Below, piece after piece: positions 2,590 to 15,081 of a stretch of DNA of 24,000 nt. Position numbers and translations under genes: made by a program. The notes below the pieces were generated by a model. The model had not been told where the DNA came from. It saw nothing but the letters and a program-made list of their open reading frames with translations, and searched no databases. This DNA comes from Aeoliella straminimaris (lineage in GTDB: Bacteria; Planctomycetota; Planctomycetia; Pirellulales; Lacipirellulaceae). Within the stretch, counting starts at the first letter, position 1. Each line of letters opens with the position of its first letter. The DNA lies in contig NZ_JAMXLR010000095.1 in assembly GCF_024054565.1 (NCBI RefSeq), positions 165,966 through 189,965 of the forward strand, written 5' to 3'.

Positions 2590-5500
2590 ATGAAACGCTC
2601 GTCCTTCGTTGTTTGCTTCGCTGCGCTCGCTTGTTCTTGCGTGACCGCCCTGCCCTCGCTGGCCGCCGACGAAATTGGCTTTGTCGAAACGTTTGCGCTG
2701 GCTGAGGACCGGGCCGAGGTACTCGGGCAGTTGATACCGGGCACCGAGGAGTACTATTTTTATCACGCGCTGCATTATCAGAACACAAAACAGTCGGAGA
2801 AGCTTGACGACTTGCTGGACAAATGGCGCAAGCGAGTTGAAGCCTCTGAACTCCGCAATCTGATTGTGCGTCGGCAACGACTGCTAGCGTACGACAGCGA
2901 TCCGAAAGCGACCCTCGATTGGCTACGCAACGAACTGGGTATTCAATTTGCCCACCAGCGCAGTCCCGAGCCCGGGCAGAAACCAAACTTGCCCACCGTG
3001 CTCGACCCTGCGGTAATCAGCCGACAGGCATACATTCAGCGGGCCATCGACCAGCATGACAACCTGGCTGGCTTCCAGGACACGGCGCTCGACTGGATAC
3101 TCCGCGATGGCGGCGTGGAACTCACCTCCGGCCGGCGGAGGGCCCTGTTGTCACGCATCGATCGTCCCGACTACGACAATCTGGTCGAGTTGATTGCGGC
3201 TGACCTCCGCACGAAGGAAAGCCGTGGTTTTGGCGAGTTCAAGATCCACCGGCAACTGCTCAAATCACAACTGGACGCGCTGCTGGACTTGAAGCCCGAC
3301 CTCCGCACCAATTCGAACTTCATTCATACCAATCTGGTGAAGCTCGCGCCGAACGCCGATGCCGATCCGAGCGATACGGAAGTCCGGGAGGCATATCTGC
3401 AGCGCATGTGGGCGTATGTGAAAGATTTGCCACCGGCTCACAATTCGCTGAAGGCGAACATCCTGTACGCCTTGCTCGATCATCAGCGGCAAGCCGGAAA
3501 GTACAATCGCACGCTGTTCGAGGTCTACGTGAAGCAGCCCCGGCCGATGCCCTATATGGATCCCCGCTACCTGAACAGCGACCCGGTGCGGCGCTACCAG
3601 GTGAATCTGGGACAGGACTTCTCGCCCATCACGCGATGTCCGCCGGTGGGCGACGATACGACCCTGGTGCGAGACTATCTGCTGCATTTCTTGGTTGAAC
3701 AGGACGACATTGCGCCATGGAGCGAGTGGATACGCGACACTTTCGTCAGACCGCTACTGGCCGAGGCGAAAATTGTCTCGGGTGGTCCGGATTCCGAGCG
3801 ATGGGCGTCGATGCTCACGCCATCGGCCTACCAACAGCTGAAGGACCGGGTCGACATCGATCTGGCGGTGACAAACCCACAGCAGTTCGACATGGATGAC
3901 GAAGTCACGTTGGCGGCGGACATCAAGAATGTCGACAAGCTGCTGGTCAAGGTCTATGAGGTCAACGCCTTTAACGTCTATCTCGCTACGCACCGAGAGG
4001 TAAGCACCGGTCTGGAGTTGGATGGCCTGGTGGCTGGTTCGCAGCAGGTATATGCGTACAGCGAAACCCCTTTCCGACGTGTGCGGCGCGAGTTTACGTT
4101 CCCTGAACTCGAAGGCAAACGCGGCGTCTGGATGATCGAGCTGATCGGTGGCGGGCGAAGCAGTCGCGCCCTGGTCCGGAAGGGCGGACTGCACTATCTC
4201 GCGCGGCAAGGCGTGGCGGGCACGGTGCTGTCGATTCTGGACGAACAAGACAATCCGGCTCCCAAGGCATCGGTCTGGCTAGCTGGCCGCGAGTACAAGC
4301 CCGACGAACAAGGTGGCATTGTCGTTCCGTACTCCTCCGACCCGGGCCGCCACCCCATCATCCTCCGCGATGCTGATGGCTTCGCTTCGCTAGCCTATTT
4401 TCAGCATCCTGCGGAATCCTACACGCTGGACGTTGGTTTCTTCGTCGACCGCGAGGCGCTGCTGGTTGGCGGTGAGGCTACCCTGCTGGTCCGCCCCGAT
4501 TTTCGCATCAACGGCGTGGCCGCTCCTTTGGACTTGCTGGAGCAGGTGAAATTGACGATCACGTCGACCAACCTCGACGGCATCAGCACTACGGCCGAGG
4601 TGGACGATTTCCAACTTCACAGCGACAAGGAAACCGAGCACCAGTTCGCCGTACCGCCTCGGCTGGCCACACTGAGTTTCCAGCTCAGTGCTCAGGTCGA
4701 GCAGGTGAGCACCGGCAAGAAGGTCTCGCTGTCCAGCAATGGCCTGCGCAGCGTCAACGGCATCGACAAGGAGGAATCGACCTACGAACTCCACCTAAGC
4801 CACATGGACGGGCACGCCGTAGTTGAAGTGCTGGGGAAGAACGGCGAGCGTCTGGCGGACCGCGCCGTATGGCTCGTGTTTCAACATCGCGACTTCAAGA
4901 CAAACCACGGTGTGTCTCTCAAATCCGATGAAGCGGGGCGAATCGATCTTGGCACCCTGCCCGACATTGTGCGGGTGACGGCCAATGCCGATGGCATCGA
5001 CGAGGTGGCGTGGGACATCGCTGCAGGAGAAGACGCCCACAGCCGCCCCGCAGTGCTGCAGACCGTGCAGGGCGAGGCGCTACACGTACCCCACCTAGGC
5101 GGTGCGAAACTGTCGCGGGCCGACTACTCCCTGCTAGCAGTTCGTCGCGGCAACTTTACAACCGACCAGTTCGGCAAGCTCTCCGTGGCCGGCGGATTCC
5201 TGTTAATTGAAGGCCTTGAACCGGGCGACTACAGTCTAAAGATCAAACGCGAAAACCGTGTCATTCCGATTCGCGTCACGGCCGGCAAAATGGTGGGACG
5301 ATTCGCTGCTGGCAAGCATCGAATTCTCGAAACAGCCCACCGACTGCCTCTGCATATTACCGCCGTGGCCGACGACAACGGTGACTTGCTGGTCAAGCTC
5401 GCCAACGCCGAACAGGGTACGCGGGTACATGTGCTGGTATCGAGGTTCAAACCGGCGTTTCCACTGCACGGGGCTCTGGGTGCCGCGTACGATCCCACCT

Positions 5501-8500
5501 TGCTGACTATTACTCGTCCCGCATTTCGCAATGTCTATCTGAGCGGTCGCGACATAGGCGACGAGTATCGCTACATCCTCGATCGCCGCGATCAGACAAC
5601 CTACCCGGGCAACATGCTCGATCGACCAGGATTGCTACTCAATCCGTGGGAGCTCCGTGACACCGATACGGGGAAGCAACAGGCCGCCACTGGTGGCGAG
5701 TATCAGGACGCGTCGGGCAGCACACCGTCTTCAGAAATGGCCATGGAGCCGCCACCGGCAGAAGCCCGGCATCAACTTGCGGACTTGTCGAACCTCGACT
5801 TTTTGAAGCATGCCGGCGTGGTGCTCGCGAATCTCACACCTGGTAAAGACGGCATCGTCCGCATTCCCAAGGAGCAGCTCAGCGATCGCCAGGACGTACA
5901 TATCGTGGCCATCGGCTCCACCGACACGGTGTTCCGACATGTGTCGTTGCCCGATGCTGGTGCCGCATTCCGCGACCTCCGTTTGGCTAAGCCGCTTGAT
6001 TTAAAGAAGCACTTCACCGAACGCAAGGAGGTGGCTCTGCTGGGCGAGGGCGACCAACTTGAGATTCCGGATGTTCGCGCGGCCGAAATGCAGGGGTACG
6101 ACACGCTGGCTTCGATCTATAGCTTGTACATGACCCGCTCGGGCAATCCCACGCTGGCCGAATTCGCCTTCGTGCTGAAATGGGATGCATTGGACGCTGC
6201 CGAGCAACGTTCGGAGTACTCGAAGTACGCCTCGCACGAGTTGAGTTTCTACCTGAGTCGTAAGGATCCTGAGTTCTTCGAGCAGGTTATTCTGCCCTAC
6301 TTGAAAAACAAGAAGGACAAGACCTTCATCGATCACTATTTGTTGAAGGACGACCTGAGCGAATTCTTGGATCCGTGGCGGTATGGCCGACTGAACATGG
6401 CCGAGCGCGTGCTGCTGGCCGACCGTCTGGGCGACGCGGAGCGCGACGCGACCAGGCGTCACCTGGAGGACCTGTTCGCCCAGTTGCCGCCCAACCCGTC
6501 CAAGAGTCAGAGCGAGTTCCTGACCGCGTTGCGAGGCCGATCGCTCACTGCCGATTCTGGAGTGGGTGGCGTAACGCTCAGCTTCGACAGGTTTGGCGGT
6601 TTCAGGGATGGCGAAGCGGACGCGGATGCGGAGCACTTGACCGATCGTTTTGACGCCGCCGCGAGTGCGCGGGCAGTCGACCAACCCACCTTGGCAGCGG
6701 GGCCGCCGCATGCAGGAAGCCCTATCTCTGGTGACAAATTGGCTGAACTAGAGAGTCTGGAAGCGGCTCAACGTGTGAGGAGTGCCGTGGAAGAGAGAAA
6801 GAAAGATCTGAAGCTACAAGAGCTCAACGCGGATTTGAGTTTTGCCTATGATCGCGCAGGTGGTCGCCGTGCTGGGGAGTTAGAACTGTTGCGTCGCAAG
6901 CGGGTGCGTGGTTTTTATCGCAGGATGTCGGCGGTGAAAGAGTGGGCCGAAAATAACTACTACCACCTGCCCATCGAGCAGCAGCTGGCGGACCGCGTAG
7001 CGATCAATGCCTTCTGGCGCGACTATGCCGCGCACCTGGCAGACAACGCCGACGAGCCATTCCTCTCGAAGCACGTGGCTGTGCCTACTTCGAACTTCAG
7101 CGAGATGATGCTAGCCCTGGCGGTACTCGACCTGCCCGTCGAGGCCGCCGAAGCCGAGGTAACCACCGACGCAGCGTCCCTGACCTTGAAGGTGGGTTCG
7201 CCTACCATTGTGTTCCACAAGCAAATTCAGGAAGCTGCCGAAAGCGACGACAAAACACCTGTGTTAGTGGGGCAGAATTACTTCCGCCACGGCGATCGGT
7301 ACGTGCAGGTCGATGGCGAGCAGCGTGACAAGTACGTCACCGACGAGTTCCTGCCTGGCGTCGTGTACGGGTGCCAGGTTGTGGTGACCAATCCCACTTC
7401 GGCCACGCAGAAACTCGATGTCTTGACACAAATTCCCGAGAAGGCAATGCCGGTCTTGGGTAGCAAGCAGACTTACAGCTTGCCGGTGCAACTTGGTCCC
7501 TATGCCACGCAAAAGCTGGAGTATTATTTTTACTTCCCGCGTACTGGCGACTTTGCTCATTACCCGGTTCAAGTCGCCCGCGACGAGCAACTGGCCGCCT
7601 GGGCCGAGCCCTTCACCTTTCACGTAGTCGAGCAGTTAAGCCGCATCGACAAGGCGTCATGGGACTACCTGTCGCAGTGGGGTACGTCCGACGAGGTGCT
7701 GAGCTACCTTCAGCAGAACAACATCGAACGCATCGATCTGGCCCGCATCGCATGGCGGATGCGGGATGTCGATTTCTTTAAGCAGACGCTCGAGCTGCTA
7801 GCCAAGCGGCACGTGTACAACCCCGTGCTGTGGAGCTACGCGATTTACCACAACCAACTTGACCGGATCCAACAGTATCTGCGTACGAACGACGAGTTTC
7901 TCCGCCGTTTTGGTGAGCGGATTGATTGCACGCTGGTCACGGTCGATCCGGTGGAGCGGCATTGGATTCAGCACCTGGAGTACAGCCCGCTGGTAAATGC
8001 CCGCGCCCATCGCTTGGGCCGCGATCGCAAGATCGTGAATGCCGCATTCGGCGAGCAGTACCATCGCTTGATGAACGTGCTGCGGTACAAGTCCAGGCTA
8101 TCCGAAGAGGACAAGCTCGACGTGGTGTATTACCTGTTCCTGCAGGACCGCATCGGCGAGGCTCTGGAGTGGTTCGACGAAATCGACGCCGAGAAACTGC
8201 CCACGGCCTTGCAGTTGGATTACCTGCGATGCTACGTGGCGTTCTACCGCGAGCAACCCGAGGCGGCCGAACAGATCGCCAAGCAGTATGCCGATTACCC
8301 TGTGGACCGGTGGCGAGCGCGATTCGCCAACGTGCTCTCGCAGATTGGCGAAATCCGTGGCGGCCAGGTAGCCGATAGCGGTGGTGACGAAGACCAACGC
8401 GAAGGGCTGCAGGACGAATTGGCTTCCACCGAGCCAGCACTCGAAATGAAGGTTGAGAACGGTCAGGTGCAGTTGACCTACCAGAATCTCGAGCAGGTGA

Positions 8501-9003
8501 CTGTGAACTACTACGAGATGGACGTCGAGTTCCTGTTCAGTTCGAACCCCTTCGTCGAAAGCGATGCCGATCGCTTTGGTGTGATCCAGCCGAATCGCAG
8601 CGATTCCGTCGAGCTGCCCGAGCAAGGCGACCGGCACGCCGTGGATATTCCGCAGGAGTTCACCGGCAAGAATGTTCTGGTCGAAGTGCTGGGCTCTGGC
8701 CGCCGCATCGCGCAGGCTTACTACGCCAACGATCTGAAGGTGCAGCTTGTTGAGCAATACGGCCGCTTGCAGGTCCGCGACGATAAGACGAACAAGCCGC
8801 TGTCGAAGGTGTACGTCAAGGTTTATGCTCGCACGCCCCAAGGCACCCGGTTTTTCAAGGATGGGTACACCGACTTGCGTGGTAAGTTCGACTACACAAG
8901 TCTCAACACCGACGACATCGGCGGTGTCAGCGAGTTTGCCGTGCTGGTGATGAGCAGCGACCACGGGGCCGTAGTGTTGACGGCCAAGCCGCCACAGCAA
9001 TAG
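2590..9003 (+). CDS. giant secreted protein (2137 aa), function unknown; C-terminal carboxypeptidase-regulatory-like/beta-sandwich-like segment
   Basis: Single uninterrupted 6.4-kb ORF. N-terminal signal peptide MKRSSFVVCFAALACSCVTALPSLAADE. The C-terminal stretch KVYVKVYARTPQGTRFFKDGYTDLRGKFDY resembles prealbumin-fold (CarboxypepD_reg-like) domains. No catalytic motif was recognised by eye. Confidence 0.85.
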   Translation: MKRSSFVVCFAALACSCVTALPSLAADEIGFVETFALAEDRAEVLGQLIPGTEEYYFYHALHYQNTKQSEKLDDLLDKWRKRVEASELRNLIVRRQRLLAYDSDPKATLDWLRNELGIQFAHQRSPEPGQKPNLPTVLDPAVISRQAYIQRAIDQHDNLAGFQDTALDWILRDGGVELTSGRRRALLSRIDRPDYDNLVELIAADLRTKESRGFGEFKIHRQLLKSQLDALLDLKPDLRTNSNFIHTNLVKLAPNADADPSDTEVREAYLQRMWAYVKDLPPAHNSLKANILYALLDHQRQAGKYNRTLFEVYVKQPRPMPYMDPRYLNSDPVRRYQVNLGQDFSPITRCPPVGDDTTLVRDYLLHFLVEQDDIAPWSEWIRDTFVRPLLAEAKIVSGGPDSERWASMLTPSAYQQLKDRVDIDLAVTNPQQFDMDDEVTLAADIKNVDKLLVKVYEVNAFNVYLATHREVSTGLELDGLVAGSQQVYAYSETPFRRVRREFTFPELEGKRGVWMIELIGGGRSSRALVRKGGLHYLARQGVAGTVLSILDEQDNPAPKASVWLAGREYKPDEQGGIVVPYSSDPGRHPIILRDADGFASLAYFQHPAESYTLDVGFFVDREALLVGGEATLLVRPDFRINGVAAPLDLLEQVKLTITSTNLDGISTTAEVDDFQLHSDKETEHQFAVPPRLATLSFQLSAQVEQVSTGKKVSLSSNGLRSVNGIDKEESTYELHLSHMDGHAVVEVLGKNGERLADRAVWLVFQHRDFKTNHGVSLKSDEAGRIDLGTLPDIVRVTANADGIDEVAWDIAAGEDAHSRPAVLQTVQGEALHVPHLGGAKLSRADYSLLAVRRGNFTTDQFGKLSVAGGFLLIEGLEPGDYSLKIKRENRVIPIRVTAGKMVGRFAAGKHRILETAHRLPLHITAVADDNGDLLVKLANAEQGTRVHVLVSRFKPAFPLHGALGAAYDPTLLTITRPAFRNVYLSGRDIGDEYRYILDRRDQTTYPGNMLDRPGLLLNPWELRDTDTGKQQAATGGEYQDASGSTPSSEMAMEPPPAEARHQLADLSNLDFLKHAGVVLANLTPGKDGIVRIPKEQLSDRQDVHIVAIGSTDTVFRHVSLPDAGAAFRDLRLAKPLDLKKHFTERKEVALLGEGDQLEIPDVRAAEMQGYDTLASIYSLYMTRSGNPTLAEFAFVLKWDALDAAEQRSEYSKYASHELSFYLSRKDPEFFEQVILPYLKNKKDKTFIDHYLLKDDLSEFLDPWRYGRLNMAERVLLADRLGDAERDATRRHLEDLFAQLPPNPSKSQSEFLTALRGRSLTADSGVGGVTLSFDRFGGFRDGEADADAEHLTDRFDAAASARAVDQPTLAAGPPHAGSPISGDKLAELESLEAAQRVRSAVEERKKDLKLQELNADLSFAYDRAGGRRAGELELLRRKRVRGFYRRMSAVKEWAENNYYHLPIEQQLADRVAINAFWRDYAAHLADNADEPFLSKHVAVPTSNFSEMMLALAVLDLPVEAAEAEVTTDAASLTLKVGSPTIVFHKQIQEAAESDDKTPVLVGQNYFRHGDRYVQVDGEQRDKYVTDEFLPGVVYGCQVVVTNPTSATQKLDVLTQIPEKAMPVLGSKQTYSLPVQLGPYATQKLEYYFYFPRTGDFAHYPVQVARDEQLAAWAEPFTFHVVEQLSRIDKASWDYLSQWGTSDEVLSYLQQNNIERIDLARIAWRMRDVDFFKQTLELLAKRHVYNPVLWSYAIYHNQLDRIQQYLRTNDEFLRRFGERIDCTLVTVDPVERHWIQHLEYSPLVNARAHRLGRDRKIVNAAFGEQYHRLMNVLRYKSRLSEEDKLDVVYYLFLQDRIGEALEWFDEIDAEKLPTALQLDYLRCYVAFYREQPEAAEQIAKQYADYPVDRWRARFANVLSQIGEIRGGQVADSGGDEDQREGLQDELASTEPALEMKVENGQVQLTYQNLEQVTVNYYEMDVEFLFSSNPFVESDADRFGVIQPNRSDSVELPEQGDRHAVDIPQEFTGKNVLVEVLGSGRRIAQAYYANDLKVQLVEQYGRLQVRDDKTNKPLSKVYVKVYARTPQGTRFFKDGYTDLRGKFDYTSLNTDDIGGVSEFAVLVMSSDHGAVVLTAKPPQQ

Positions 9004-9295: not shown

Positions 9296-10945
<1,650 letters not shown>

Positions 10946-10970
10946 CTCGACCTCCTTTCAGTGAAAAATA

Positions 10971-11088
10971 CCCGACGAAGCTTGGGCCGAGTTGCCGCGT
11001 CACAGACGCTGGAAGCTCCCGCTTCCGTGGCTACCGACGGGTGTTACCCCGACTCGGTTCGTGGATGTACTCCGCACCGACAGTCGGA
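10971..11088 (-). ncRNA. Y-RNA-like module 5, embedded in the rsr 5' leader (degenerate distal domain)
   Basis: The 5' strand UCCGAC-UG-UCGGUGC-GGAG-UACAU (from 11088) and the 3' strand CUCGG-N10-GUCGGG (to 10971) match the family pattern. The distal part keeps a decayed T-arm (CGGG-GUAACA-CCCG) and hairpins GGAAGC-GGGA-GCUUCC and GCGUC-UGU-GACGC. It is followed by UAUUUUU and then the rsr RBS. Confidence 0.5.
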
Positions 11089-11116
11089 CGTGTCTGGTAG
11101 TTGTTTATCAAAGGAT

Positions 11117-11256
11117 CCCGACGAGGGATTGCATTAGAGACTTTACGGCGAGCTACCATTGCTCCACGGCGCGACCGTTTCCTCGAAATGGCGCCGACGG
11201 GACTCGAACCCGTAACCTCCGGCGTGTGATGCATGTACTCCAACACGGCAGTCGGG
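11117..11256 (-). ncRNA. Y-RNA-like module 4 with a circularly permuted tRNA-like domain (YrlA-type architecture)
   Basis: Closing stem CCCGAC (11256-11251) / GUCGGG (11122-11117), plus UGGAG/CUCUA. The distal domain reads 5'->3': T-arm ACGGG-UUCGAGU-CCCGU, closed acceptor-like hairpin CGGCGC...GCGCCG (inner UUUC-GAG-GAAA), then U-G, then D-arm GAGC-AAUGGUA-GCUC. Confidence 0.65.
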
Positions 11257-11276
11257 ATATACGTGTGCGATAAATT

Positions 11277-11406
11277 GATCGACGAGGGGGCGACCAGAGA
11301 TATTTCTCATTGCTCTACCAACTGAGCTACATCGACGCCTGGCGCCGACGACGGGGATCGAACCCGTGACTCATGAGTTAACATGTACTCTAATCTGCAG
11401 TCGATC
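11277..11406 (-). ncRNA. Y-RNA-like module 3 with a circularly permuted tRNA-like domain (YrlA-type architecture)
   Basis: Three-segment closing stem: GAUCGAC (11406-11400) / GUCGAUC (11283-11277), UAGAG/CUCUG, and CUCAU/AUGAG. The distal domain is T-arm ACGGG-UUCGAUC-CCCGU, a closed acceptor-like hairpin CGUCGGCG..CGUCGAUG (8-9 bp), then U-A in the tRNA position 8-9 register, then D-arm GCUC-AGUUGGUA-GAGC. Confidence 0.7.
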
Positions 11407-11423
11407 GTAGGTTTGTGTTGAGT

Positions 11424-11585
11424 CCGACGAAGTGGTGGCGAGAGTTGCGTTTACGATCGTCCGTGCCCCCGTATGGAGGTCGTTGACTGGCCCCTTTGTC
11501 TCGGAGAGACTTTGGCGCCGTTCACTAGTCCGTCGCCCGACATCGCTACCTTAGGACCGTCATGTACTCCCAACCGTCAGTCGGG
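11424..11585 (-). ncRNA. Y-RNA-like module 2 (family closing stem, degenerate distal domain)
   Basis: 5' strand CCCGAC-UG-ACGGUUG-GGAG-UACAU (from 11585); 3' strand CUCUC-N11-GUCGG (to 11424). The interior holds an acceptor-hairpin-like GGCGCC-AAA-GUCUC-UCC-GAGAC-AAA-GGGGCC but no clean T or D arms. Confidence 0.5.
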
Positions 11586-11595
11586 CTATGTCAAA

Positions 11596-11669
11596 GACCA
11601 GCCAACGAAGATTTGGTTCGGATAAGGTCATCATTTCAGGATGTAGTCCGAACCGGCAGTTGACTGGTC
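11596..11669 (-). ncRNA. Y-RNA-like module 1 (minimal, stem-loop only)
   Basis: Self-contained hairpin. GACCAGUCAAC (11669-11659) pairs over 11 bp with GUUGGCUGGUC (11606-11596), and an inner helix GGUUCGGA/UCCGAACC follows. It carries the family motifs UG...GGAC-UACAU and CUUC-GUUG. It starts 2 nt after the tRNA-Cys discriminator. Confidence 0.6.
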
Positions 11670-11671
11670 AA

Positions 11672-11743
11672 AGACGCCGGTGGGAATCGAACCCACGAAA
11701 AACTGCTTTGCAGACAGCCGCCCGACCATCAGGCTTCAGCGTC
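11672..11743 (-). tRNA. tRNA-Cys(GCA), divergent (A8 instead of U8)
   Basis: Hand-folded cloverleaf, 72 nt. Acceptor GACGCUG/CGGCGUC. D-arm GCCU-GAUGGUC-GGGC. Anticodon arm GCUGU-CUGCAAA-GCAGU. Variable loop UUUUC. T-arm GUGGG-UUCGAUU-CCCAC. U73 discriminator, which is the Cys identity element. No encoded CCA. Confidence 0.7.
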
Positions 11744-11748
11744 TTGGC

Positions 11749-11848
11749 GAATGCGGAAGTGGGAATTCGGAATGCGGAATCTAACGCAAGCGAGCGTTAA
11801 GTATCGCCTGCGGGTGATTCCGCCTTCCGCATTCCGAACTCCGCATTC
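11749..11848 (-). other. about 100-nt branched inverted-repeat spacer between tRNA-Arg(GCG) and tRNA-Cys
   Basis: Outer 9 bp GAAUGCGGA/UCCGCAUUC. Inner 11 bp GGAAUGCGGAA/UUCCGCAUUCC. Apical hairpins GCGG-AAUCAC-CCGC and UAACGC-UCGCUU-GCGUUA. Built from repeated GAATGCGGAA units. Confidence 0.6.
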
Positions 11849-11852
11849 AGAG

Positions 11853-11924
11853 CAGCCCGTCCAGGAATCGAACCTGGCCTTCGACCTTCGCACGGTCGCG
11901 TGCAATCCTCTACACTCACAGGCT
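11853..11924 (-). tRNA. tRNA-Arg(GCG), divergent (G8 instead of U8)
   Basis: 72-nt cloverleaf. Acceptor AGCCUGU/ACGGGCU (7 bp). D-arm GUGU-AGAGGAUU-GCAC. Anticodon arm CGACC-GUGCGAA-GGUCG. Variable loop AAGG. T-arm CCAGG-UUCGAUU-CCUGG. Discriminator G. Confidence 0.7.
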
Positions 11925-11927
11925 ATA

Positions 11928-11995
11928 GGAGTATTCGGGGATCAGGATTCAGGGAAAGAAGGACGCGCGTCCTCCCCCTGATCCCTCACCCCTCC
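11928..11995 (-). other. about 68-nt structured hairpin spacer
   Basis: GGAG/CUCC plus a perfect 9 bp GGGAUCAGG/CCUGAUCCC enclose AGGAC-GCGC-GUCCU and GGG/CCC pairings. It lies between the Arg(UCG)-like element and tRNA-Arg(GCG). Confidence 0.55.
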
Positions 11996-12001
11996 ACAAA
12001 G

Positions 12002-12071
12002 TACCTCGCCAGGGAATCGAACCTCGTCTTGCAGATTCGAAGTCTGCGATGCTATCCAGCACACCCACACG
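12002..12071 (-). pseudogene. tRNA-Arg(UCG)-like element, probably decayed
   Basis: Perfect anticodon arm GCAGA-CUUCGAA-UCUGC and a UUCGAUU T-loop. However, the T-stem has an A.C mismatch, the D-arm is truncated (GUGC-UGGAUA-GCAU), and I could not pair the acceptor strands. Confidence 0.35.
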
Positions 12072-12079
12072 GCGTGTAA

Positions 12080-12168
12080 TATTTCGACCTGGAATCGAAC
12101 CAGGACTTGGACTTTAGGAGAGTCCTGTGCGATCCGCCCCGTTTCCAATAAACACTGTCCATCGAGAT
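12080..12168 (-). pseudogene. tRNA-Arg(CCU)-like element with an expanded D region
   Basis: Perfect T-arm CCUGG-UUCGAUU-CCAGG and anticodon arm GGACU-CUCCUAA-AGUCC. The acceptor ATCTCGA/TCGAAAT pairs 6 of 7. The D stem GUGU/GCAC would enclose a 21-nt loop. Total 89 nt. Confidence 0.4.
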
Positions 12169-12389
12169 TTGAGGCCGATCCTCGTGCGCCGGGAGACTTG
12201 CACTAGCATCACCCGGCCACCTGTAGTGACTTCGCTTGAACAACAAAGGTTCATTAAAGGTGATGCGAGCATCACTGCCGCTTCTGAGAATATGCTTGAC
12301 ACTTTACCAGCCGGAATCGAAAATGCGGGCATTCAACAATCATTACGCTGTTACTCATCTCGGTCAGCATACTACTTGGAGCCGAGCTA

Positions 12390-13694
12390 ATGACGCTGAG
12401 CAAAAAACTGACTTACCGGTTAAATCCGTTGCACCTAAAACGCTTGGTTCGAGTTGCAGTACTTGTTGCGTTCTATTTGCATTTTAGTTCTAAGGATTTT
12501 GTCTTAGGGATGTCGCCTGAATCCGCATTGGCTACTGTGGAACTGGTGGCAGATTTCGATACTCAGATTCCAGAAAAGCTGTCTAATTTTTCGAGCCTAG
12601 GTCAACGAGCCGCTATCAGCGAATCATCGGTATTCTTCACCGGCAATAACGGGCTCTACAAGGCCGATGGCGACTCACTTGTTCGGATCGTCGATAACAG
12701 CACGCCAATTCCAGGTAAATCATCGAACTTTGTAGGAGTGTCAAACGAGACTTTATTAGTGGATGATGGTGACGTGGCCTTTGATGGCACAGAAATCTTC
12801 GGATTTCGAAACGGCATCTATGTTTATAGCTCGTCCACAGACAGTATCACGTTCATAGCTGACGAAGACTCGGCGGTGCCAAATGGTACTGGGAGCTTTG
12901 CCGGCTTTCGCGCGCCTTCTATCAACAATGGAAATGTCGCCTTCTTTGGGTTCAGTGACCCGTCGTCCCAGAATGGCATATACACCACGCTGGGGGGACA
13001 ACTCCGCGTTGTTGCAGACACCAATACTATTATCCCTGGCGGCTCCGGACCGTTCAGTGATCTACTCGGATTCCCCGTCATTGAAGGCGATAGCATCACA
13101 TTTGTAGGAAGACGCTTCAATGAAAGCCAGGGAATCTACAGAGAGTCAGGTGGCACACTGTCTACTCTCTATGATCTGACCACTTCCATCCCAGGTGGTT
13201 CGGGAAGTTTTACAAGTTTCCGAAACAATGAGTTGAATGTCGAAGGCGGTTCTTTGGCCTTTATGGGCGGTGGAGCAGGCGGATACTTTGGAGTCTTTAA
13301 GGATGTGGGAGACGGTCTTACTCTAGTCGCCGACTCGAGTACGCAGGCTCCCGGTGGGACAAATACCTTCCTCGCTATTAGCAACGTTTCATTGGACGGC
13401 GAAAATGTTGCCTTTATTGGGAGCGATGGTGGTACTCGTGGAATCTATACAGATGCTCTCGGCCAATTAACAAAGATTCTAGATACGTCGGATATCATTG
13501 ATGGTCGACAGCCCAGCGAATTTCACATTGGCCGGGACTCCTTGGTTGGGAATCAGTTGGCATTTCGGGTGCGTTTTACTGACAACACTGAGAGCATCTA
13601 TGTCGCAACTCTTGTTCCTGAACCATCTACCCTGGTCGCATTCCTATTGGCCACGGCGTGTTTAGTTATGTGCCGAAATTCCTTTAGGCATTAG
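12390..13694 (+). CDS. PEP-CTERM-anchored repeat protein (about 7 repeats of a roughly 50-aa GIY...AD..T.IPGG.G.F...G..VAF.G unit)
   Basis: 434-aa ORF. C-terminal VPEPSTLVAFLLATACLVMCRNSFRH is a PEP motif followed by a TM helix and a basic tail. The N-terminus is hydrophobic. The sequence is visibly more AT-rich than its flanks. The start codon is uncertain (alternative Met41). Confidence 0.85.
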   Translation: MTLSKKLTYRLNPLHLKRLVRVAVLVAFYLHFSSKDFVLGMSPESALATVELVADFDTQIPEKLSNFSSLGQRAAISESSVFFTGNNGLYKADGDSLVRIVDNSTPIPGKSSNFVGVSNETLLVDDGDVAFDGTEIFGFRNGIYVYSSSTDSITFIADEDSAVPNGTGSFAGFRAPSINNGNVAFFGFSDPSSQNGIYTTLGGQLRVVADTNTIIPGGSGPFSDLLGFPVIEGDSITFVGRRFNESQGIYRESGGTLSTLYDLTTSIPGGSGSFTSFRNNELNVEGGSLAFMGGGAGGYFGVFKDVGDGLTLVADSSTQAPGGTNTFLAISNVSLDGENVAFIGSDGGTRGIYTDALGQLTKILDTSDIIDGRQPSEFHIGRDSLVGNQLAFRVRFTDNTESIYVATLVPEPSTLVAFLLATACLVMCRNSFRH

Positions 13695-13717
13695 CATGCT
13701 TCGAAATGGGGTCATAG

Positions 13718-13787
13718 CACGAGCGCAAGGATTCGAACCCTGTCCGTCAGTTTTGGAGGCTGACTGCTCTCCCAGGAGCACACTCGC
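13718..13787 (-). tRNA. tRNA-Trp(CCA), short and divergent
   Basis: 70 nt. Acceptor GCGAGUG/CGCUCGU. Compact D region UGCUCCUGGGAGAGCAG. Anticodon arm UCAGC-CUCCAAA-ACUGA with a C31.A39 mismatch (alternatively a 5-bp stem with a 9-nt loop). T-arm CAGGG-UUCGAAU-CCUUG. G73 as in bacterial tRNA-Trp. Confidence 0.6.
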
Positions 13788-13793
13788 ATAATA

Positions 13794-13869
13794 GGTGACC
13801 GAGCGGAATCGAACCGCCGTCGTACGGAATCACAGTCCGTCTCCGGAAACCAGCACCGGACCCGGCCAC
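13794..13869 (-). tRNA. tRNA-His(GUG), divergent (5-bp D stem, G8, no encoded G-1 in the main register)
   Basis: 76 nt. Acceptor GUGGCCG/CGGUCAC. D-arm UCCGG-UGCUGGUUU-CCGGA. Anticodon arm ACGGA-CUGUGAU-UCCGU. T-arm GGCGG-UUCGAUU-CCGCU. C73 discriminator. Confidence 0.65.
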
Positions 13870-13871
13870 AG

Positions 13872-13961
13872 CGGAAGGCGTGGGATTCGAACCCACATGC
13901 CGCCTTCTGAGCGACTTCGCATTAGCAGTGCGACCCGGCAAGCCGTATCCGGCTACCTTCC
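13872..13961 (-). tRNA. tRNA-Ser(GCU), class II with a long variable arm (A8)
   Basis: 90 nt. Acceptor GGAAGGU/GCCUUCC. D-arm CCGG-AUACGGCUUG-CCGG. Anticodon arm UCGCA-CUGCUAA-UGCGA. 20-nt variable arm (GUCGC...GCGGC). T-arm GUGGG-UUCGAAU-CCCAC. G73. It starts 2 nt upstream of tRNA-His. Confidence 0.75.
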
Positions 13962-13972
13962 GTATTTTTCAG

Positions 13973-14043
13973 TGGACCCACCGAGAATCGAACTCGGATC
14001 TCCGACCAGCCAAGCCAGCGTCGTCCCGTTGGACCATGAGCCC
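13973..14043 (-). tRNA. tRNA-Ala(GGC), divergent
   Basis: 71 nt. Acceptor GGGCUCA/UGGGUCC with the G3.U70 Ala identity pair, and A73. D-arm UG-GUCCAACGGGACGAC. Anticodon arm CUGGC-UUGGCUG-GUCGG (two G.U pairs, U37). T-arm CCGAG-UUCGAUU-CUCGG. Confidence 0.7.
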
Positions 14044-14053
14044 TCGTGTTGAG

Positions 14054-14124
14054 TGGAGCGTCGGGGAATCGAACCCCGATTGCCTGGGTGCAAACCAAGC
14101 GTCTTCCCGTTGGACCAACGCCCC
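14054..14124 (-). tRNA. tRNA-Ala(UGC), divergent
   Basis: 71 nt. Acceptor GGGGCGU/ACGCUCC with G3.U70, and A73. D-arm UG-GUCCAACGGGAAGAC. Anticodon arm CUUGG-UUUGCAC-CCAGG. T-arm CGGGG-UUCGAUU-CCCCG. Confidence 0.8.
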
Positions 14125-14139
14125 GTCGCCTTCTATTAG

Positions 14140-14265
14140 AGGTCCGTCCGGGAATTGAACCCGAGCAGTATTTGTTCTTGCTACCGCCTTCGCCCTTCAT
14201 CTTCGCTATCGCTCGGCGGGCTCAGTTGCTACCAAGAACGTGTGCCGCCAAAACACTTACAGACC
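14140..14265 (-). ncRNA. tRNA-like RNA with about 54 extra nt replacing the anticodon loop
   Basis: Acceptor GGUCUGU/ACGGACC (7 bp). D-arm GUGU-UUUGGCG-GCAC. T-arm UCGGG-UUCAAUU-CCCGG. The 76-nt middle forms a 7-bp stem GUUCUUG/CAAGAAC plus CCGCC/GGCGG, capped by a purine-rich 26-nt loop. No 7-nt anticodon loop was found. Confidence 0.55.
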
Positions 14266-14271
14266 AAGCTT

Positions 14272-14345
14272 GGCTATCAGCTGTTAGCTATTGACTATAA
14301 GCCAGAATCGTCTGGCCCACAGCTTATAGCCAACAGCCGATAGCC
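14272..14345 (-). other. 74-nt hairpin spacer with a 20-bp stem
   Basis: Arms at 14272-14291 and 14326-14345 pair over 20 bp. The two non-Watson-Crick positions are G.U on the minus-strand RNA but A.C on the plus strand. Apical CCAGA-CGAU-UCUGG hairpin. It sits between tRNA-Val and the insertion-bearing tRNA-like RNA. Confidence 0.6.
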
Positions 14346-14352
14346 CAACCAA

Positions 14353-14425
14353 TGATCCCGGATGGAGTCGAACCATCGCTCTCCTGGTTGTCATCCAGGC
14401 GTCGTAACCGTTGGACCACGGGATC
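14353..14425 (-). tRNA. tRNA-Val(GAC), divergent D-arm
   Basis: 73 nt. Acceptor GAUCCCG/CGGGAUC (perfect). U8. D-arm GUCCAACGGUUACGAC. Anticodon arm CCUGG-AUGACAA-CCAGG. Variable loop AGAGC. T-arm GAUGG-UUCGACU-CCAUC. A73. Confidence 0.8.
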
Positions 14426-14460
14426 GTGGCGTGCTCCGACTAGGCTGGTAGTGGCCACAG

Positions 14461-14520
14461 AAAAAGGTCCACTGTCGCTGCTGACACCGGGCCTTTTTCC
14501 GATGAGCTCTGTGGCTCATC
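14461..14520. other. two adjacent hairpins at the upstream edge of the tRNA array (terminator-like / insulator)
   Basis: 14461-14498: AAAAAGGTCC...GGGCCTTTTT, a 10-bp stem with an inner TGTC/GACA helix and A/T runs on both sides. 14501-14520: GATGAGC-TCTGTG-GCTCATC, a perfect 7-bp stem. Confidence 0.45.
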
Positions 14521-14973
14521 TTCGAGTTAGACCAGGTGTCACCAACGCCTTGCCTCACCGGCGTACGCAGACCTCGAACGGCAACTTGCCCCGTGAGCAA
14601 ATGTAGTCGCATACCGTTTAACGGCCTGCGGCGATCGCCAATGCGACGCCGGTTCGATATTTGATCTTGTATGCAGCATTGAAGGTCCCTCCAACTGATC
14701 GATACCCCGAGGGCGAAGTTGATCGTGTCTCGCGGTCTCTCTGTAAGAGTGCCGAATCGTCAAATGGTTCGTGCAGAAATCAAAGCACTTGTGCAAAGAA
14801 GTCGGAAATCATTCGTTACCGCTCGGTGGAGAGGCAGTCTCCCGAAGTTTGGTCCGCAGTAGACCGGCGGACGGACATGGAGACTATTCCTCCAAAAGTA
14901 GTATCGCCTCTGGAGCTCACCACACTTTGGGTAACACCCCAGCGGAGGCGGGGTCGTCAGCCGTTCCGAAAAC

Positions 14974-15004
14974 GAAAAAAGCTCCTCGAATTCGAGGAGC
15001 TTTT
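14974..15004 (-). terminator. rho-independent terminator downstream of tRNA-Lys
   Basis: GCTCCTCG-AATT-CGAGGAGC (14981-15000) is followed on the minus strand by UUUUUU (plus-strand A-run 14975-14980). It lies 4 nt after the tRNA-Lys 3' end. Confidence 0.85.
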
Positions 15005-15008
15005 GCAG

Positions 15009-15081
<73 letters not shown>

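What the first reader, a model, noticed from the sequence alone, without database searches (positions are those of the whole stretch)
11117..11406. Two modules carry a circularly permuted tRNA mimic (T-arm, closed acceptor hairpin, U8-A9/G9, D-arm)
Read linearly, 11190-11340 looks like a tRNA with about 95 nt in place of the anticodon arm. That reading leaves 5 nt between the acceptor and D stems.

Read across unit boundaries the register becomes canonical. The T-arm (ACGGG-UUCGAUC-CCCGU) is followed by a closed hairpin (CGUCGGCG..CGUCGAUG), then exactly U-A, then GCUC-AGUUGGUA-GAGC. The 'anticodon stem' CUCAU/AUGAG continues into the long closing stem formed by the module's 5' and 3' ends.

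This is the architecture reported for bacterial YrlA RNAs. T-loop UUCGA and D-loop GG are preserved, so the tRNA elbow could form.
Basis: partly seen in the sequence, partly recalled or inferred. Interest (0 to 1): 0.7.

Follow-up and report, generated by a model that had tools for sequence, protein, structure and literature searches.

The report
tRNA-shaped Y RNAs beside Ro60 gene
The two modules are tRNA-shaped "Y RNAs" (YrlA type) encoded just upstream of the Ro60 protein that binds them; this RNA class is already known, here found in a planctomycete, and a neighbouring module unexpectedly copies part of 23S ribosomal RNA.

Summary
On the minus strand, 11273-11407 (module C) and 11112-11258 (module D) each have a T-arm, a closed acceptor-like hairpin, U8-A9/G9 and a D-arm. 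All of this sits inside a long stem formed by the module's own 5' and 3' ends. They lie 167-462 nt upstream of, and on the same strand as, a Ro60/Rsr gene (9296-10945). Both match Rfam YrlA end to end (E about 1e-5) but score below its gathering threshold.

A model built from C alone recovers D. Of its best 148 hits in 80 planctomycete Ro60 loci, 147 lie upstream of Ro60 on the same strand. Helices co-vary, and the tertiary Levitt pair 15:48 is A:U or G:C in 85 of 86 cores. This is the published YrlA architecture, described in the literature as "circularly permuted tRNAs with closed acceptor stems". The modules are therefore new, divergent members of a known kind.

C and D are two of five tandem Y-RNA modules that fill the gap between a large tRNA operon and Ro60. 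The more novel result is module B (11422-11585). Its effector domain looks like a circularly permuted copy of the 23S rRNA H67-H71 junction.

The parts
11273..11407 (-). Module C: complete YrlA-type Y RNA (about 135 nt)
   Evidence: Rfam YrlA positions 1-114, 35.5 bits, E 6e-6. The MFE equals the YrlA fold, z = -3.06.
11400..11406 (-). C: 5' strand of the closing (Ro60-binding) stem, GAUCGAC, followed by UGC
   Evidence: Pairs with 11277-11283. The homologous columns are 97-99% paired with compensatory changes (helices 1-2).
11277..11283 (-). C: 3' strand of the closing stem (GUCGAUC), preceded by the conserved CCCUC
11351..11367 (-). C: T-arm ACGGG-UUCGAUC-CCCGU
   Evidence: Read directly. 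The T stem is 98% paired across homologs (helix 8).
11330..11350 (-). C: closed acceptor-like hairpin. It has 7 bp in tRNA register (CGUCGGC/GUCGAUG) plus 2 more bp, and the loop side reads G73-CCA.
   Evidence: The acceptor helix is 96.8% paired, with compensatory changes at all 9 pairs (helix 9).
11328..11329 (-). C: U8-A9 linker
   Evidence: UA occurs in 79 of 86 homologous cores.
11312..11327 (-). C: D-arm GCUC-AGUUGGUA-GAGC (A14, G15, G18, G19)
   Evidence: G15 pairs with C48 (11368), forming the Levitt pair.
11306..11310 (-). C: 3' strand of the anticodon-like stem (AUGAG); its partner CUCAU is at 11373-11377
   Evidence: This is the least conserved helix in homologs, 72-82% paired (helices 5-7).
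11112..11258 (-). Module D: complete YrlA-type Y RNA (about 147 nt)
   Evidence: Rfam YrlA positions 1-114, 34.9 bits, E 9e-6. Recovered by the model built from C only, E 1.8e-6. It is 88% identical to L001:3545-3688.
11197..11213 (-). D: T-arm ACGGG-UUCGAGU-CCCGU
11167..11196 (-). D: closed acceptor-like hairpin, CGGCGC...GCGCCG, with an 18-nt cap
11150..11166 (-). D: U8-G9 followed by the D-arm GAGC-AAUGGUA-GCUC (A15 pairs with U48; G9 goes with G12:C23)
   Evidence: The Levitt pair and the 9-12-23 triple are in the alternative co-varying state relative to C.
11115..11122 (-). D: 3' strand of the closing stem (GUCGGGAU); its partner AUCCCGAC is at 11251-11258
11598..11662 (-). Module A: minimal Y-RNA-like hairpin with no tRNA-like domain, starting 9 nt after tRNA-Cys
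   Evidence: Shares the terminal motifs. Same-strand counterparts in 36 loci; where checked they lie 4-9 nt after tRNA-Cys.
11422..11585 (-). Module B: Y-RNA-like module whose effector domain resembles a circularly permuted 23S rRNA H67-H71 junction
10966..11090 (-). Module E: Y-RNA-like module immediately upstream of Ro60, with no tRNA-like or rRNA-like domain
   Evidence: Terminal motifs. Counterparts in 32 loci; the best-matching ones lie directly before Ro60. No rRNA similarity.
9296..10945 (-). Ro60/Rsr ortholog (549 aa), the presumed protein partner
   Evidence: Pfam vWA_Ro60 1.3e-13 and TROVE 2.6e-9. PDB 2NVO Rsr, E 3.7e-19 over residues 20-533. AGGAGG lies 8 nt upstream of the ATG.
11671..11744 (-). 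tRNA-Cys(GCA), the last gene of the upstream same-strand tRNA array
   Evidence: The order Arg-Arg-Cys, then Y modules, then Ro60 is conserved in related loci.

Best explanation
Modules C and D are genes for YrlA-type bacterial Y RNAs, the small RNA partners of the Ro60/Rsr protein encoded just downstream.

Each RNA has two modules. Its 5' and 3' ends pair into a stem that carries the Ro60-binding motif: CGACUG on the 5' strand and CYUCGUCG on the 3' strand, followed by an 8-9 bp helix and an invariant G-UA-C. Its distal end folds into a tRNA-shaped L, made of T-arm, D-arm, a closed acceptor-like hairpin and a variable-loop equivalent. The anticodon stem of a normal tRNA is replaced here by the stem that leads to Ro60.

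Shown here: the sequence and structure elements, their conservation and covariation, and their linkage to Ro60.

Inferred from work on Salmonella, Mycobacterium and Deinococcus (PMC4201824; bioRxiv 10.1101/312249):
- Ro60 binds the stem.
- The tRNA-like elbow is recognised by tRNA enzymes (TruB, DusA) and serves as the effector-binding or protective module. It would tether Ro60 to a partner such as PNPase, or gate access of other RNAs to the Ro60 ring.

Inferred from anatomy: the modules are transcribed together with the upstream tRNA genes and rsr and are cut out of a common precursor. Module C has a tRNA-length (7 bp or more) acceptor stem. It may also be cut by RNase P, as M. smegmatis YrlA is.
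For: - Rfam YrlA gives full-length matches to both modules.
- A Ro60 gene lies 167-462 nt downstream on the same strand.
- The MFE of C equals the YrlA fold, z = -3.06.
- A model built from C alone finds D, plus 185 hits, all on the Ro60 strand. Of the best 148 non-window hits, 147 are upstream of Ro60, at a median of 396 nt.
- Secondary structure is well supported: 90.3% of cells are paired against 31-47% in slid controls, 43 of 45 pairs have compensatory changes, and 0 of 500 shuffles reach the observed values.
- Tertiary pairs that are not part of the model also co-vary. N15:N48 is A:U in 63 cores, G:C in 22 and something else in 1, while the neighbouring-position controls show no coupling. 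U8:A14 holds in 85 of 86. The 9-12:23 triple switches together, A with U:A and G with G:C.
- C and D fall in the two opposite Levitt classes.
- The published definition and structure of YrlA match this anatomy.
Against: - Both modules score about half of Rfam's gathering threshold, 35 bits against 69. No planctomycete module reached it in 15 loci.
- The published 5' motif GNCGAAN0-1G is present only as a variant, NNCGACUG.
- Module D is not supported by thermodynamics alone.
- The alignment used for pair counts was fitted to the model and the sequences are related, so shuffle statistics overstate independence.
- The two Levitt classes may be two paralog lineages rather than many independent switches.
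- There are no expression, end-mapping, Ro60-binding or modification data for any planctomycete.
- The effector of the tRNA-like domain is unknown even in model organisms.
Confidence: 0.9

Rival explanations
1. Linear reading. The region encodes a tRNA, or tandem tRNA remnants, whose 5' half (acceptor and D-arm at 11339-11306) and 3' half (T-arm and acceptor at 11213-11190) are separated by a roughly 95-nt insert. The YrlA signal would then be the 'dimeric tRNA' artefact that Chen et al. warn about.
For: GGCGUCG (11339-11333) can form 7 bp with CGGCGCC (11197-11191). The modules sit next to a genuine tRNA array. Chen et al. list dimeric tRNAs as a false-positive source.
Against: - ARAGORN and Rfam tRNA call nothing there.
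- That reading has no anticodon stem or loop, and leaves 5 nt instead of 2 between the acceptor and D stems.
- Within-module acceptor pairing is conserved with compensatory changes: 96.8% paired, and 6.4 of 7. The figure is inflated because the parser required the first six pairs.
- Pairing across adjacent modules is only 4.6 of 7 in 11 module pairs.
- Each module is closed by its own co-varying terminal stem.
Confidence: 0.02
2. Circularly permuted tRNA genes that mature into functional, decoding tRNAs through a circular intermediate, as in the red alga Cyanidioschyzon merolae (own knowledge).
For: The order is 3' half, then 5' half. In module C the 3' acceptor strand is followed by G-CCA in tRNA register.
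Against: - There is no anticodon loop. The anticodon-like stem runs into a 20-bp-plus stem carrying the Ro60 motif.
- CCA in register occurs in only 4 of 86 cores. In L063 the same GCCAAGC cap is shifted by one base, so it looks like a hairpin cap.
- The real tRNA genes in this window do not encode CCA.
- Linkage is to Ro60, not to codon-usage needs.
Confidence: 0.01
3. A sub-variant of the main explanation. The tRNA-like domains act mainly as processing punctuation, recognised by RNase P and RNase Z to cut Y RNAs and the rsr mRNA out of the long tRNA-operon transcript. Module C would then become a two-piece Y RNA with a tRNA-like CCA end, as shown for M. smegmatis YrlA.
For: - Module A starts 9 nt after tRNA-Cys, and no terminator-like or promoter-like site was found between the tRNAs and rsr.
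- C has 7 bp in tRNA register (9 contiguous), and 36 of 86 homologous cores have at least 7 contiguous pairs.
- M. smegmatis YrlA, with a 7-bp stem, is cut by RNase P and receives CCA.
Against: - Most cores (50 of 86) have only 6 contiguous pairs, like the uncleaved Salmonella YrlA.
- In C, positions -1 and -2 pair with 73 and 74, which should hinder RNase P (inference).
- Modules A, B and E lack a tRNA-like domain yet must be processed as well.
Confidence: 0.15

Closest known systems
YrlA RNAs (Rfam RF02553; S. Typhimurium YrlA, PDB 6CU1; M. smegmatis YrlA; Chen et al. 2014, PMC4201824; Wang et al. 2018, 10.1101/312249)
   Same: - Encoded near Ro60 on the same strand.
- The terminal stem carries a CGA-containing 5' motif.
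- T-arm, closed acceptor-like hairpin, UA linker and D-arm come in that order.
- The conserved UA 'kink' nucleotides and the Levitt pair (A:U or G:C) are present.
- There is no anticodon loop and no free CCA end.
   Different: - The sequences are divergent: about 35 bits against a gathering score of 69.
- The 5' motif is CGACUG rather than CGAA(N)G, and here the 3' strand of the stem is conserved as well.
- Two YrlA-type modules sit inside a five-module tandem array, which is fused to the end of a large tRNA operon.
- There is no RtcB/RtcA neighbourhood in the window.
- Whether Planctomycetes were among the phyla in the 2014 survey could not be checked, because the supplement is not held.
Deinococcus radiodurans Yrn1 and metazoan Y RNAs
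   Same: Two-module design: a Ro60-binding stem formed by the RNA's ends, plus a distal effector module. Module E's 5' strand reads GUCCGA, close to the vertebrate GGUCCGA.
   Different: Yrn1 has only a T-arm-like element, and metazoan Y RNAs have no tRNA-like domain. C and D have the full D/T elbow.
Other tRNA mimics: tmRNA tRNA-like domain, TYMV TLS, mascRNA (discussed in 10.1101/312249)
   Same: An L-shaped fold built on the T-loop/D-loop interaction, recognised by tRNA enzymes.
   Different: Those have a free 3' end (CCA or CCA-like) and are linear in tRNA order. C and D are permuted, with a closed acceptor end. The weak mascRNA hit (18 bits, E 0.8) only reflects the T-arm.
Circularly permuted tRNA genes of Cyanidioschyzon merolae (own knowledge, not checked here)
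   Same: The 3' half precedes the 5' half in the gene.
   Different: Those mature into ordinary decoding tRNAs with an anticodon loop. C and D have none, and they are tied to Ro60.
For module B only: rRNA-mimicking regulatory RNAs such as ribosomal-protein operon leaders (own knowledge)
   Same: A short RNA reproduces a local rRNA junction, including rRNA-identical junction strands.
   Different: B is embedded in a Y-RNA stem next to Ro60, it is circularly permuted, and it is not a 5' leader of a ribosomal-protein or methyltransferase gene. No Rfam family matches it.

Membership tests
YrlA-type Y RNA | Encoded within 4 kb of a Ro60/TROVE gene, on the same strand | tested here: met
   C ends 328 nt and D ends 167 nt upstream of the Ro60 ATG at 10945, all on the minus strand. 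The same arrangement holds for 147 of 148 homologous hits.
YrlA-type Y RNA | 5' motif GNCGAAN0-1G (the presumed Ro60 contact) within a stem formed by the RNA's ends | tested here: inconclusive
   The stem is present and co-varies. The motif reads AUCGACUG in C and CCCGACUG in D. The CGA core and the trailing G are kept, but the second A is C and the first G is not conserved. Rfam's model aligns it to its CgaAUGC consensus.
YrlA-type Y RNA | T stem-loop with a tRNA-like T-loop (UUCGA) | tested here: met
   UUCGAUC in C and UUCGAGU in D. The 5-bp stems are 98% paired across homologs.
YrlA-type Y RNA | D stem-loop with the conserved A14, R15 and G18-G19 | tested here: met
   AGUUGGUA in C and AAUGGUA in D. 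The D stem is 96% paired, with compensatory changes at all 4 pairs.
YrlA-type Y RNA | [quoted passage not shown] | tested here: met
   C has 9 bp (7 in tRNA register) followed by UA. D has 6 bp followed by UG. UA occurs in 79 and UG in 5 of 86 cores.
YrlA-type Y RNA | tRNA tertiary pairs, especially a Levitt pair 15:48 that is either G:C or A:U | tested here: met
   C has G15:C48 and D has A15:U48. Across 86 distinct cores there are 63 A:U, 22 G:C and 1 other, while the position-shifted controls are uncoupled.
YrlA-type Y RNA | Conserved YUAY / UA 'kink' nucleotides 5' of the variable-loop region | tested here: met
   GAG-UAC-AU in B, C, D and E and CUAC in A. The UA is invariant, though the first position is G rather than Y in B-E.
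YrlA-type Y RNA | Score at or above the Rfam RF02553 gathering threshold (69 bits) | tested here: not met
   35.5 and 34.9 bits, and no hit at the gathering threshold in 15 related loci. This is a curated annotation cut-off, not a structural feature. It shows divergence from the seed sequences, so automatic annotation will miss these RNAs.
YrlA-type Y RNA | Bound by Ro60/Rsr in vivo; pseudouridine 55 and dihydrouridine installed by TruB and DusA | not testable with these tools
   Requires RIP, Northern blots and modification mapping.
Canonical tRNA gene | Anticodon stem-loop with a 7-nt loop, linear 5'-to-3' order, and a free acceptor end | tested here: not met
   No call from ARAGORN or Rfam tRNA at 11112-11407. 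There is no anticodon loop and the acceptor end is closed.

The most novel reading that the evidence does not exclude
C and D would be two members of a conserved planctomycete 'battery' of Y RNAs, transcribed as the tail of a giant tRNA operon. In this reading a common Ro60-binding stem carries circularly permuted copies of different translation RNAs. C and D carry a tRNA opened at the anticodon loop and closed at the acceptor end. Module B (11422-11585) carries the 23S rRNA domain IV junction H67-H68-H69-H71, opened at the H69 loop and closed at H67.

Ro60 would then be tethered to, or gated by, factors that recognise tRNA and the 50S subunit-interface region. That would give it dedicated surveillance of the translation RNAs.

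An rRNA-mimicking Y RNA has not been described in the literature I could search.
Probability: 0.4. Interest if true: 0.8.

Novelty: new member of a known kind. Interest (0 to 1): 0.38.

Why it matters
For the finding as given, it extends the YrlA tRNA-mimic class to Planctomycetota, in a form that Rfam's threshold does not capture. These RNAs therefore go unannotated in hundreds of genomes and MAGs. The 86 distinct cores also give a clean natural test of tRNA tertiary covariation outside tRNA.

The wider locus matters more. [quoted passage not shown] An array offers a comparative handle on what Ro60 is being directed to. The same Ro60-binding stem carries a tRNA mimic, a putative 23S junction mimic and two further domains, all hard-wired to a tRNA operon. 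If the 23S mimicry is real, it links bacterial Ro60 directly to large-subunit rRNA. That link has been seen genetically in Deinococcus, in 23S maturation and starvation-induced rRNA decay, but it has no known RNA determinant.

Tried and rejected
- Phage origin: megablast of 10900-11700 against 50,697 phage records found nothing. The window is chromosomal (aconitase, CLC channel) and planctomycete.
- MAFFT alignment of C with D misaligned the D-arm because the acceptor hairpins differ in length. It was not used. The model was seeded from C alone, so D served as a test.
- My first regex for tRNA-like cores was too strict, matching 27 of 150. An explicit pairing search replaced it.
- The encoded CCA in C as a conserved tRNA-like 3' end was rejected as a general feature. 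It occurs in 4 of 86 cores, is register-shifted in L063, and real tRNA genes here lack encoded CCA.
- BLAST of module B against 28 Gb of E. coli genomes gave no hit. This was uninformative, because an 18-mer cannot reach E of 10 or less in that search space. Direct comparison was used instead.
- The simple gapped local alignment of native B to 23S was not significant: score 50, against a shuffle mean of 36 and maximum of 56. Only the 18-mer, the profile alignment and the rotation test carry weight.
- rRNA mimicry in modules A and E: none found by nhmmer. Other recurrent 12-mers shared with rRNA lie in the Ro60 coding sequence or the generic 5' helix, so they are chance plus conservation.
- Supplementary tables of Chen et al. 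2014 are not held, so prior coverage of Planctomycetes is unknown.
- The exact Ro60 protein is not in the gene-position index.
Full report
WHAT IS THERE. The feature lies on the minus strand. Reading 11760 down to 10930 shows five tandem modules between tRNA-Cys (11744-11671) and a 549-aa ORF (10945-9296):
- A, 11662-11598
- B, 11585-11422
- C, 11407-11273
- D, 11258-11112
- E, 11090-10966

Each module begins with (C/U)NA(C/U)UG...G(G/A)A(G/C)UACAU and ends with CU(U/C)CGU(C/U)G(G/A). The two ends pair with each other. The finding concerns C and D.

In C the order is as follows:
- CUCAU, then a 5-nt variable-loop equivalent GAGUC.
- T-arm ACGGG-UUCGAUC-CCCGU.
- A closed hairpin CGUCGGCGC-CAG-GCGUCGAUG.
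- U-A.
- D-arm GCUC-AGUUGGUA-GAGC.
- A, then AUGAG.
- A long stem formed by the module's ends.

The unconstrained minimum-free-energy structure of C is exactly this fold. It accounts for 25% of the ensemble, with z = -3.06 against dinucleotide shuffles.

D has the same parts, with U8-G9, the D-arm GAGC-AAUGGUA-GCUC and a 30-nt acceptor hairpin. Thermodynamics alone does not favour the YrlA fold for D. Its MFE differs, z = 0.02, and the best fold containing the YrlA helices is 3.5 kcal/mol above the MFE. D's assignment therefore rests on comparative data.

However, ARAGORN and Rfam's tRNA model call nothing there, and no anticodon stem can form in that reading.

WHAT IT IS. The downstream ORF is a Ro60/Rsr ortholog:
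- Pfam vWA_Ro60 (1.3e-13) and TROVE (2.6e-9).
- The best solved relative is D. radiodurans Rsr 2NVO, aligned over residues 20-533.
- More than 6,500 homologs, the closest all from Planctomycetota.

With the sensitive Rfam scan, C and D each match YrlA (RF02553) over all 114 model positions, at 35.5 and 34.9 bits (E 6e-6 and 9e-6). That is about half the gathering score of 69.

Chen et al. 2014 (PMC4201824) defined YrlA RNAs by location within 4 kb of Ro60 on the same strand, a 5' GNCGAAN0-1G motif, and conserved T, acceptor-like and D stem-loops with a co-varying Levitt pair. Wang et al. 2018 (10.1101/312249) solved the Salmonella domain.

COMPARATIVE TEST. I fetched 80 planctomycete Ro60 loci, the closest being a Bythopirellula MAG at 89% protein identity. 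I built a covariance model from module C alone. It gave these results:
- It recovered D at E = 1.8e-6.
- It gave 185 hits at E of 1 or less, every one on the Ro60 strand.
- Of the best 148 non-window hits, 147 lie upstream of Ro60, at a median of 396 nt and a maximum of 1,883 nt. 74 of 80 loci have at least one hit.

On the resulting alignment, 90.3% of pair cells are standard pairs, against 31-47% when partners are slid by 1-3 columns. 43 of 45 pairs show changes on both sides, and no shuffle out of 500 reaches the observed values. The closing stem, the second helix, the T stem, the acceptor hairpin and the D stem are each 96-99% paired. The anticodon-like stem is weakest, at 72-82%.

Because that alignment is fitted to the model, I also tested contacts the model does not contain. 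In 86 distinct cores parsed independently of the alignment:
- D-loop position 15 and the base before the T stem (position 48) are A:U in 63, G:C in 22 and other in 1. The 15-with-47 and 16-with-48 controls show no coupling.
- U8:A14 holds in 85 of 86.
- Base 9 switches together with the 12:23 pair: A with U:A in 80, G with G:C in 5.

C (G15:C48, A9) and D (A15:U48, G9 with G12:C23) sit in opposite classes. One caveat is that the classes may be paralog lineages rather than many independent events.

RIVALS. The dimeric-tRNA artefact that Chen et al. warn of is excluded. Acceptor pairing is conserved within modules: 96.8% with compensatory changes, and 6.4 of 7, where the parser had already required the first six pairs. 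Across adjacent modules it is only 4.6 of 7 (11 module pairs). Each module also has its own co-varying closing stem.

A decoding permuted tRNA is excluded by the absence of any anticodon loop.

Module C's G-CCA after a 7-bp acceptor stem is intriguing, because M. smegmatis YrlA has a 7-bp stem, is cut by RNase P and receives CCA. Three things argue that it is a hairpin cap:
- CCA in register occurs in only 4 of 86 cores.
- The same GCCAAGC cap is shifted by one base in L063.
- The window's real tRNA genes do not encode CCA.

RNase P cleavage of C remains a testable sub-hypothesis. 36 of 86 cores have at least 7 contiguous pairs.

MECHANISM. The following are shown here:
- the architecture;
- its conservation;
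- the tertiary-pair covariation expected of an L-shaped fold;
- obligatory linkage to Ro60.

By homology with characterised systems, I infer that Ro60 binds the terminal stem. The tRNA-like elbow would be the effector-binding or protective module, modified by TruB and DusA, which tethers Ro60 to a partner such as PNPase or gates the Ro60 ring.

From anatomy, I infer co-transcription with the tRNA array and rsr. Module A starts 9 nt after tRNA-Cys, modules are 12-21 nt apart, and no terminator-like or sigma-70-like site was detected between the tRNAs and rsr.

CONTEXT BEYOND THE FINDING.

(1) C and D are part of a five-module array. The degenerate 5' motif occurs 288 times in the 260 kb upstream of Ro60 on the Ro60 strand. 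It occurs 26 times in 410 kb downstream and 40 times on the opposite strand. Typical arrays have 4-8 modules. All five window module types have same-strand counterparts in other loci (A 36, B 34, C 14, D 65, E 32 loci). A directly follows tRNA-Cys, B is second, and E directly precedes Ro60.

(2) In many related loci the array is the tail of a very large same-strand tRNA operon, with up to 29 tRNAs in the 4-kb flank. The operon usually ends with tRNA-Arg(TCG), tRNA-Arg(GCG), tRNA-Cys(GCA). The window shows the same order.

(3) Module B is the best-conserved module. Several results point to 23S rRNA mimicry:
- It contains an 18-nt stretch, ACGGUCCUAAGGUAGCGA, identical to E. coli 23S rRNA 1919-1936. 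The stretch is exact in 27 of the 80 loci, always on the Ro60 strand inside the array.
- A B-type profile aligns collinearly to 23S 1916-1975, E 1e-5.
- In the RNAalifold consensus of 18 B-type modules, CGGUC pairs with a downstream GGCCG. In most loci the 3' segment reads ACGGACGGCCGUAA, while 23S 1899-1913 reads ACGGCGGCCGUAA.
- Rfam's LSU structure for E. coli 1821-2021 gives the reference topology. B has H69-, H71-, H67- and H68-like helices in the same cyclic order as 23S, but it is opened at the H69 loop and closed at H67.
- Rotating B at its ends raises its alignment score to 23S in 18 of 18 members. For L004 the score goes from 40 to 61, against a shuffle mean of 21 and maximum of 27, and the rotated module aligns continuously to 1880-1975.
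- The B fold is 96.8% paired, with 17 compensatory pairs and 0 of 500 shuffles reaching the observed values. The H69-like helix shows only one-sided changes.
- A B-specific 23-mer occurs in 30 metagenome contigs. Eight have a same-strand Ro60 gene 470-1,050 nt downstream, and four with at least 1.3 kb of downstream sequence have none. It occurs in no viral contig.
- Modules A and E show no rRNA similarity.
- I found no paper describing an rRNA-mimicking Y RNA or planctomycete Y RNAs.

VERDICT. C and D are divergent new members of the known YrlA class. They are of modest interest in themselves. The array context, and especially module B, is the part worth following up.

Noticed in passing
window 11422-11585 (minus strand); also L001:3041-3198, L004:1430-1601 and 25 further loci: Module B is a Y-RNA-like module whose effector domain contains 18 nt identical to 23S rRNA 1919-1936. 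Its helices match H69, H71, H67 and H68 of 23S domain IV in the same cyclic order, but the junction is opened at the H69 loop and closed at H67. It looks like a circularly permuted rRNA-junction mimic, the counterpart of the permuted tRNA in C and D. No Rfam family matches it and I found no literature on it.
   Followed up: yes
window 10966-11662 (minus strand); L001-L080 upstream of Ro60: The Ro60 gene is preceded by a tandem array of 4-8 Y-RNA-like modules (five in the window). The paralog types keep fixed positions: a roughly 65-nt minimal module directly after tRNA-Cys, the B type second, tRNA-like types in the middle, and an E type directly before Ro60. Published bacterial loci that I could read describe one or two Y RNAs.
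   Followed up: partly
window 11671-15081 (minus strand); L001, L002, L007, L023, L025, L054, L063 upstream flanks: A very large same-strand tRNA gene array, with up to 29 tRNAs in the 4-kb flank, ends with tRNA-Arg(TCG), tRNA-Arg(GCG), tRNA-Cys(GCA) and runs straight into the Y-RNA array and Ro60. This suggests one tRNA/Y-RNA/rsr transcription unit.
   Followed up: partly
L001, L004, L007, L009, L014, L029, L031, L055, L057, L062, L063, L069, L071, L073, L078: At Rfam's gathering threshold, YrlA (RF02553) detects none of the planctomycete YrlA-type modules in 15 loci. Standard annotation pipelines will leave these RNAs unannotated.
   Followed up: yes
window 11330-11350; L071:2952-3088, L073:2851-2987, L078:2722-2858, L063:2731-2871: The C-type acceptor hairpin is capped by a conserved GCCA(A/G)GC. 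In four cores this places G73-CCA in exact tRNA register after a 7-bp stem. In L063 the register is shifted by one base. Whether this is a hairpin cap or a latent CCA end is unresolved.
   Followed up: partly
L069:2261-2461 and L069:3241-3448; L037:2701-2882: Some YrlA-type modules carry very long insertions (60-100 nt) in the acceptor hairpin. In L069 the inserts contain internally repeated GAGCUGUGAG/GAGUCGUGAG-like units.
   Followed up: no
L067 and L073 (both CP197414.1); L022 and L046 (same MAG); L059 and L072 (Rhodopirellula maiorica); L009:4277-4710: Several genomes carry two Ro60 loci, each with its own Y-RNA array. L009 has a second array (a B-type and a C-type module) downstream of its Ro60 gene, near the contig end.
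   Followed up: no
window 12390-13694 (+ strand): A 434-aa ORF with a DUF7453 domain lies on the opposite strand. It interrupts the tRNA array between tRNA-Trp (13717) and tRNA-Arg (12075). A sigma-70-like site at 12296-12324 (+) precedes it.
   Followed up: no
window 14977-15004 (minus strand): A strong terminator-like hairpin (12-bp stem followed by a U-run) sits immediately after tRNA-Lys (15081-15008). tRNA-Lys may therefore be a separate transcription unit from the downstream tRNAs.
   Followed up: no
window 2590-9003 (+ strand): A 2,137-aa ORF with no Pfam match converges on the 3' end of the Ro60 gene.
   Followed up: no
L014:2771-2847: A group II intron domain hit (Rfam RF00029, 64 bits) lies just upstream of tRNA-Cys in one related locus, inside the tRNA array.
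   Followed up: no
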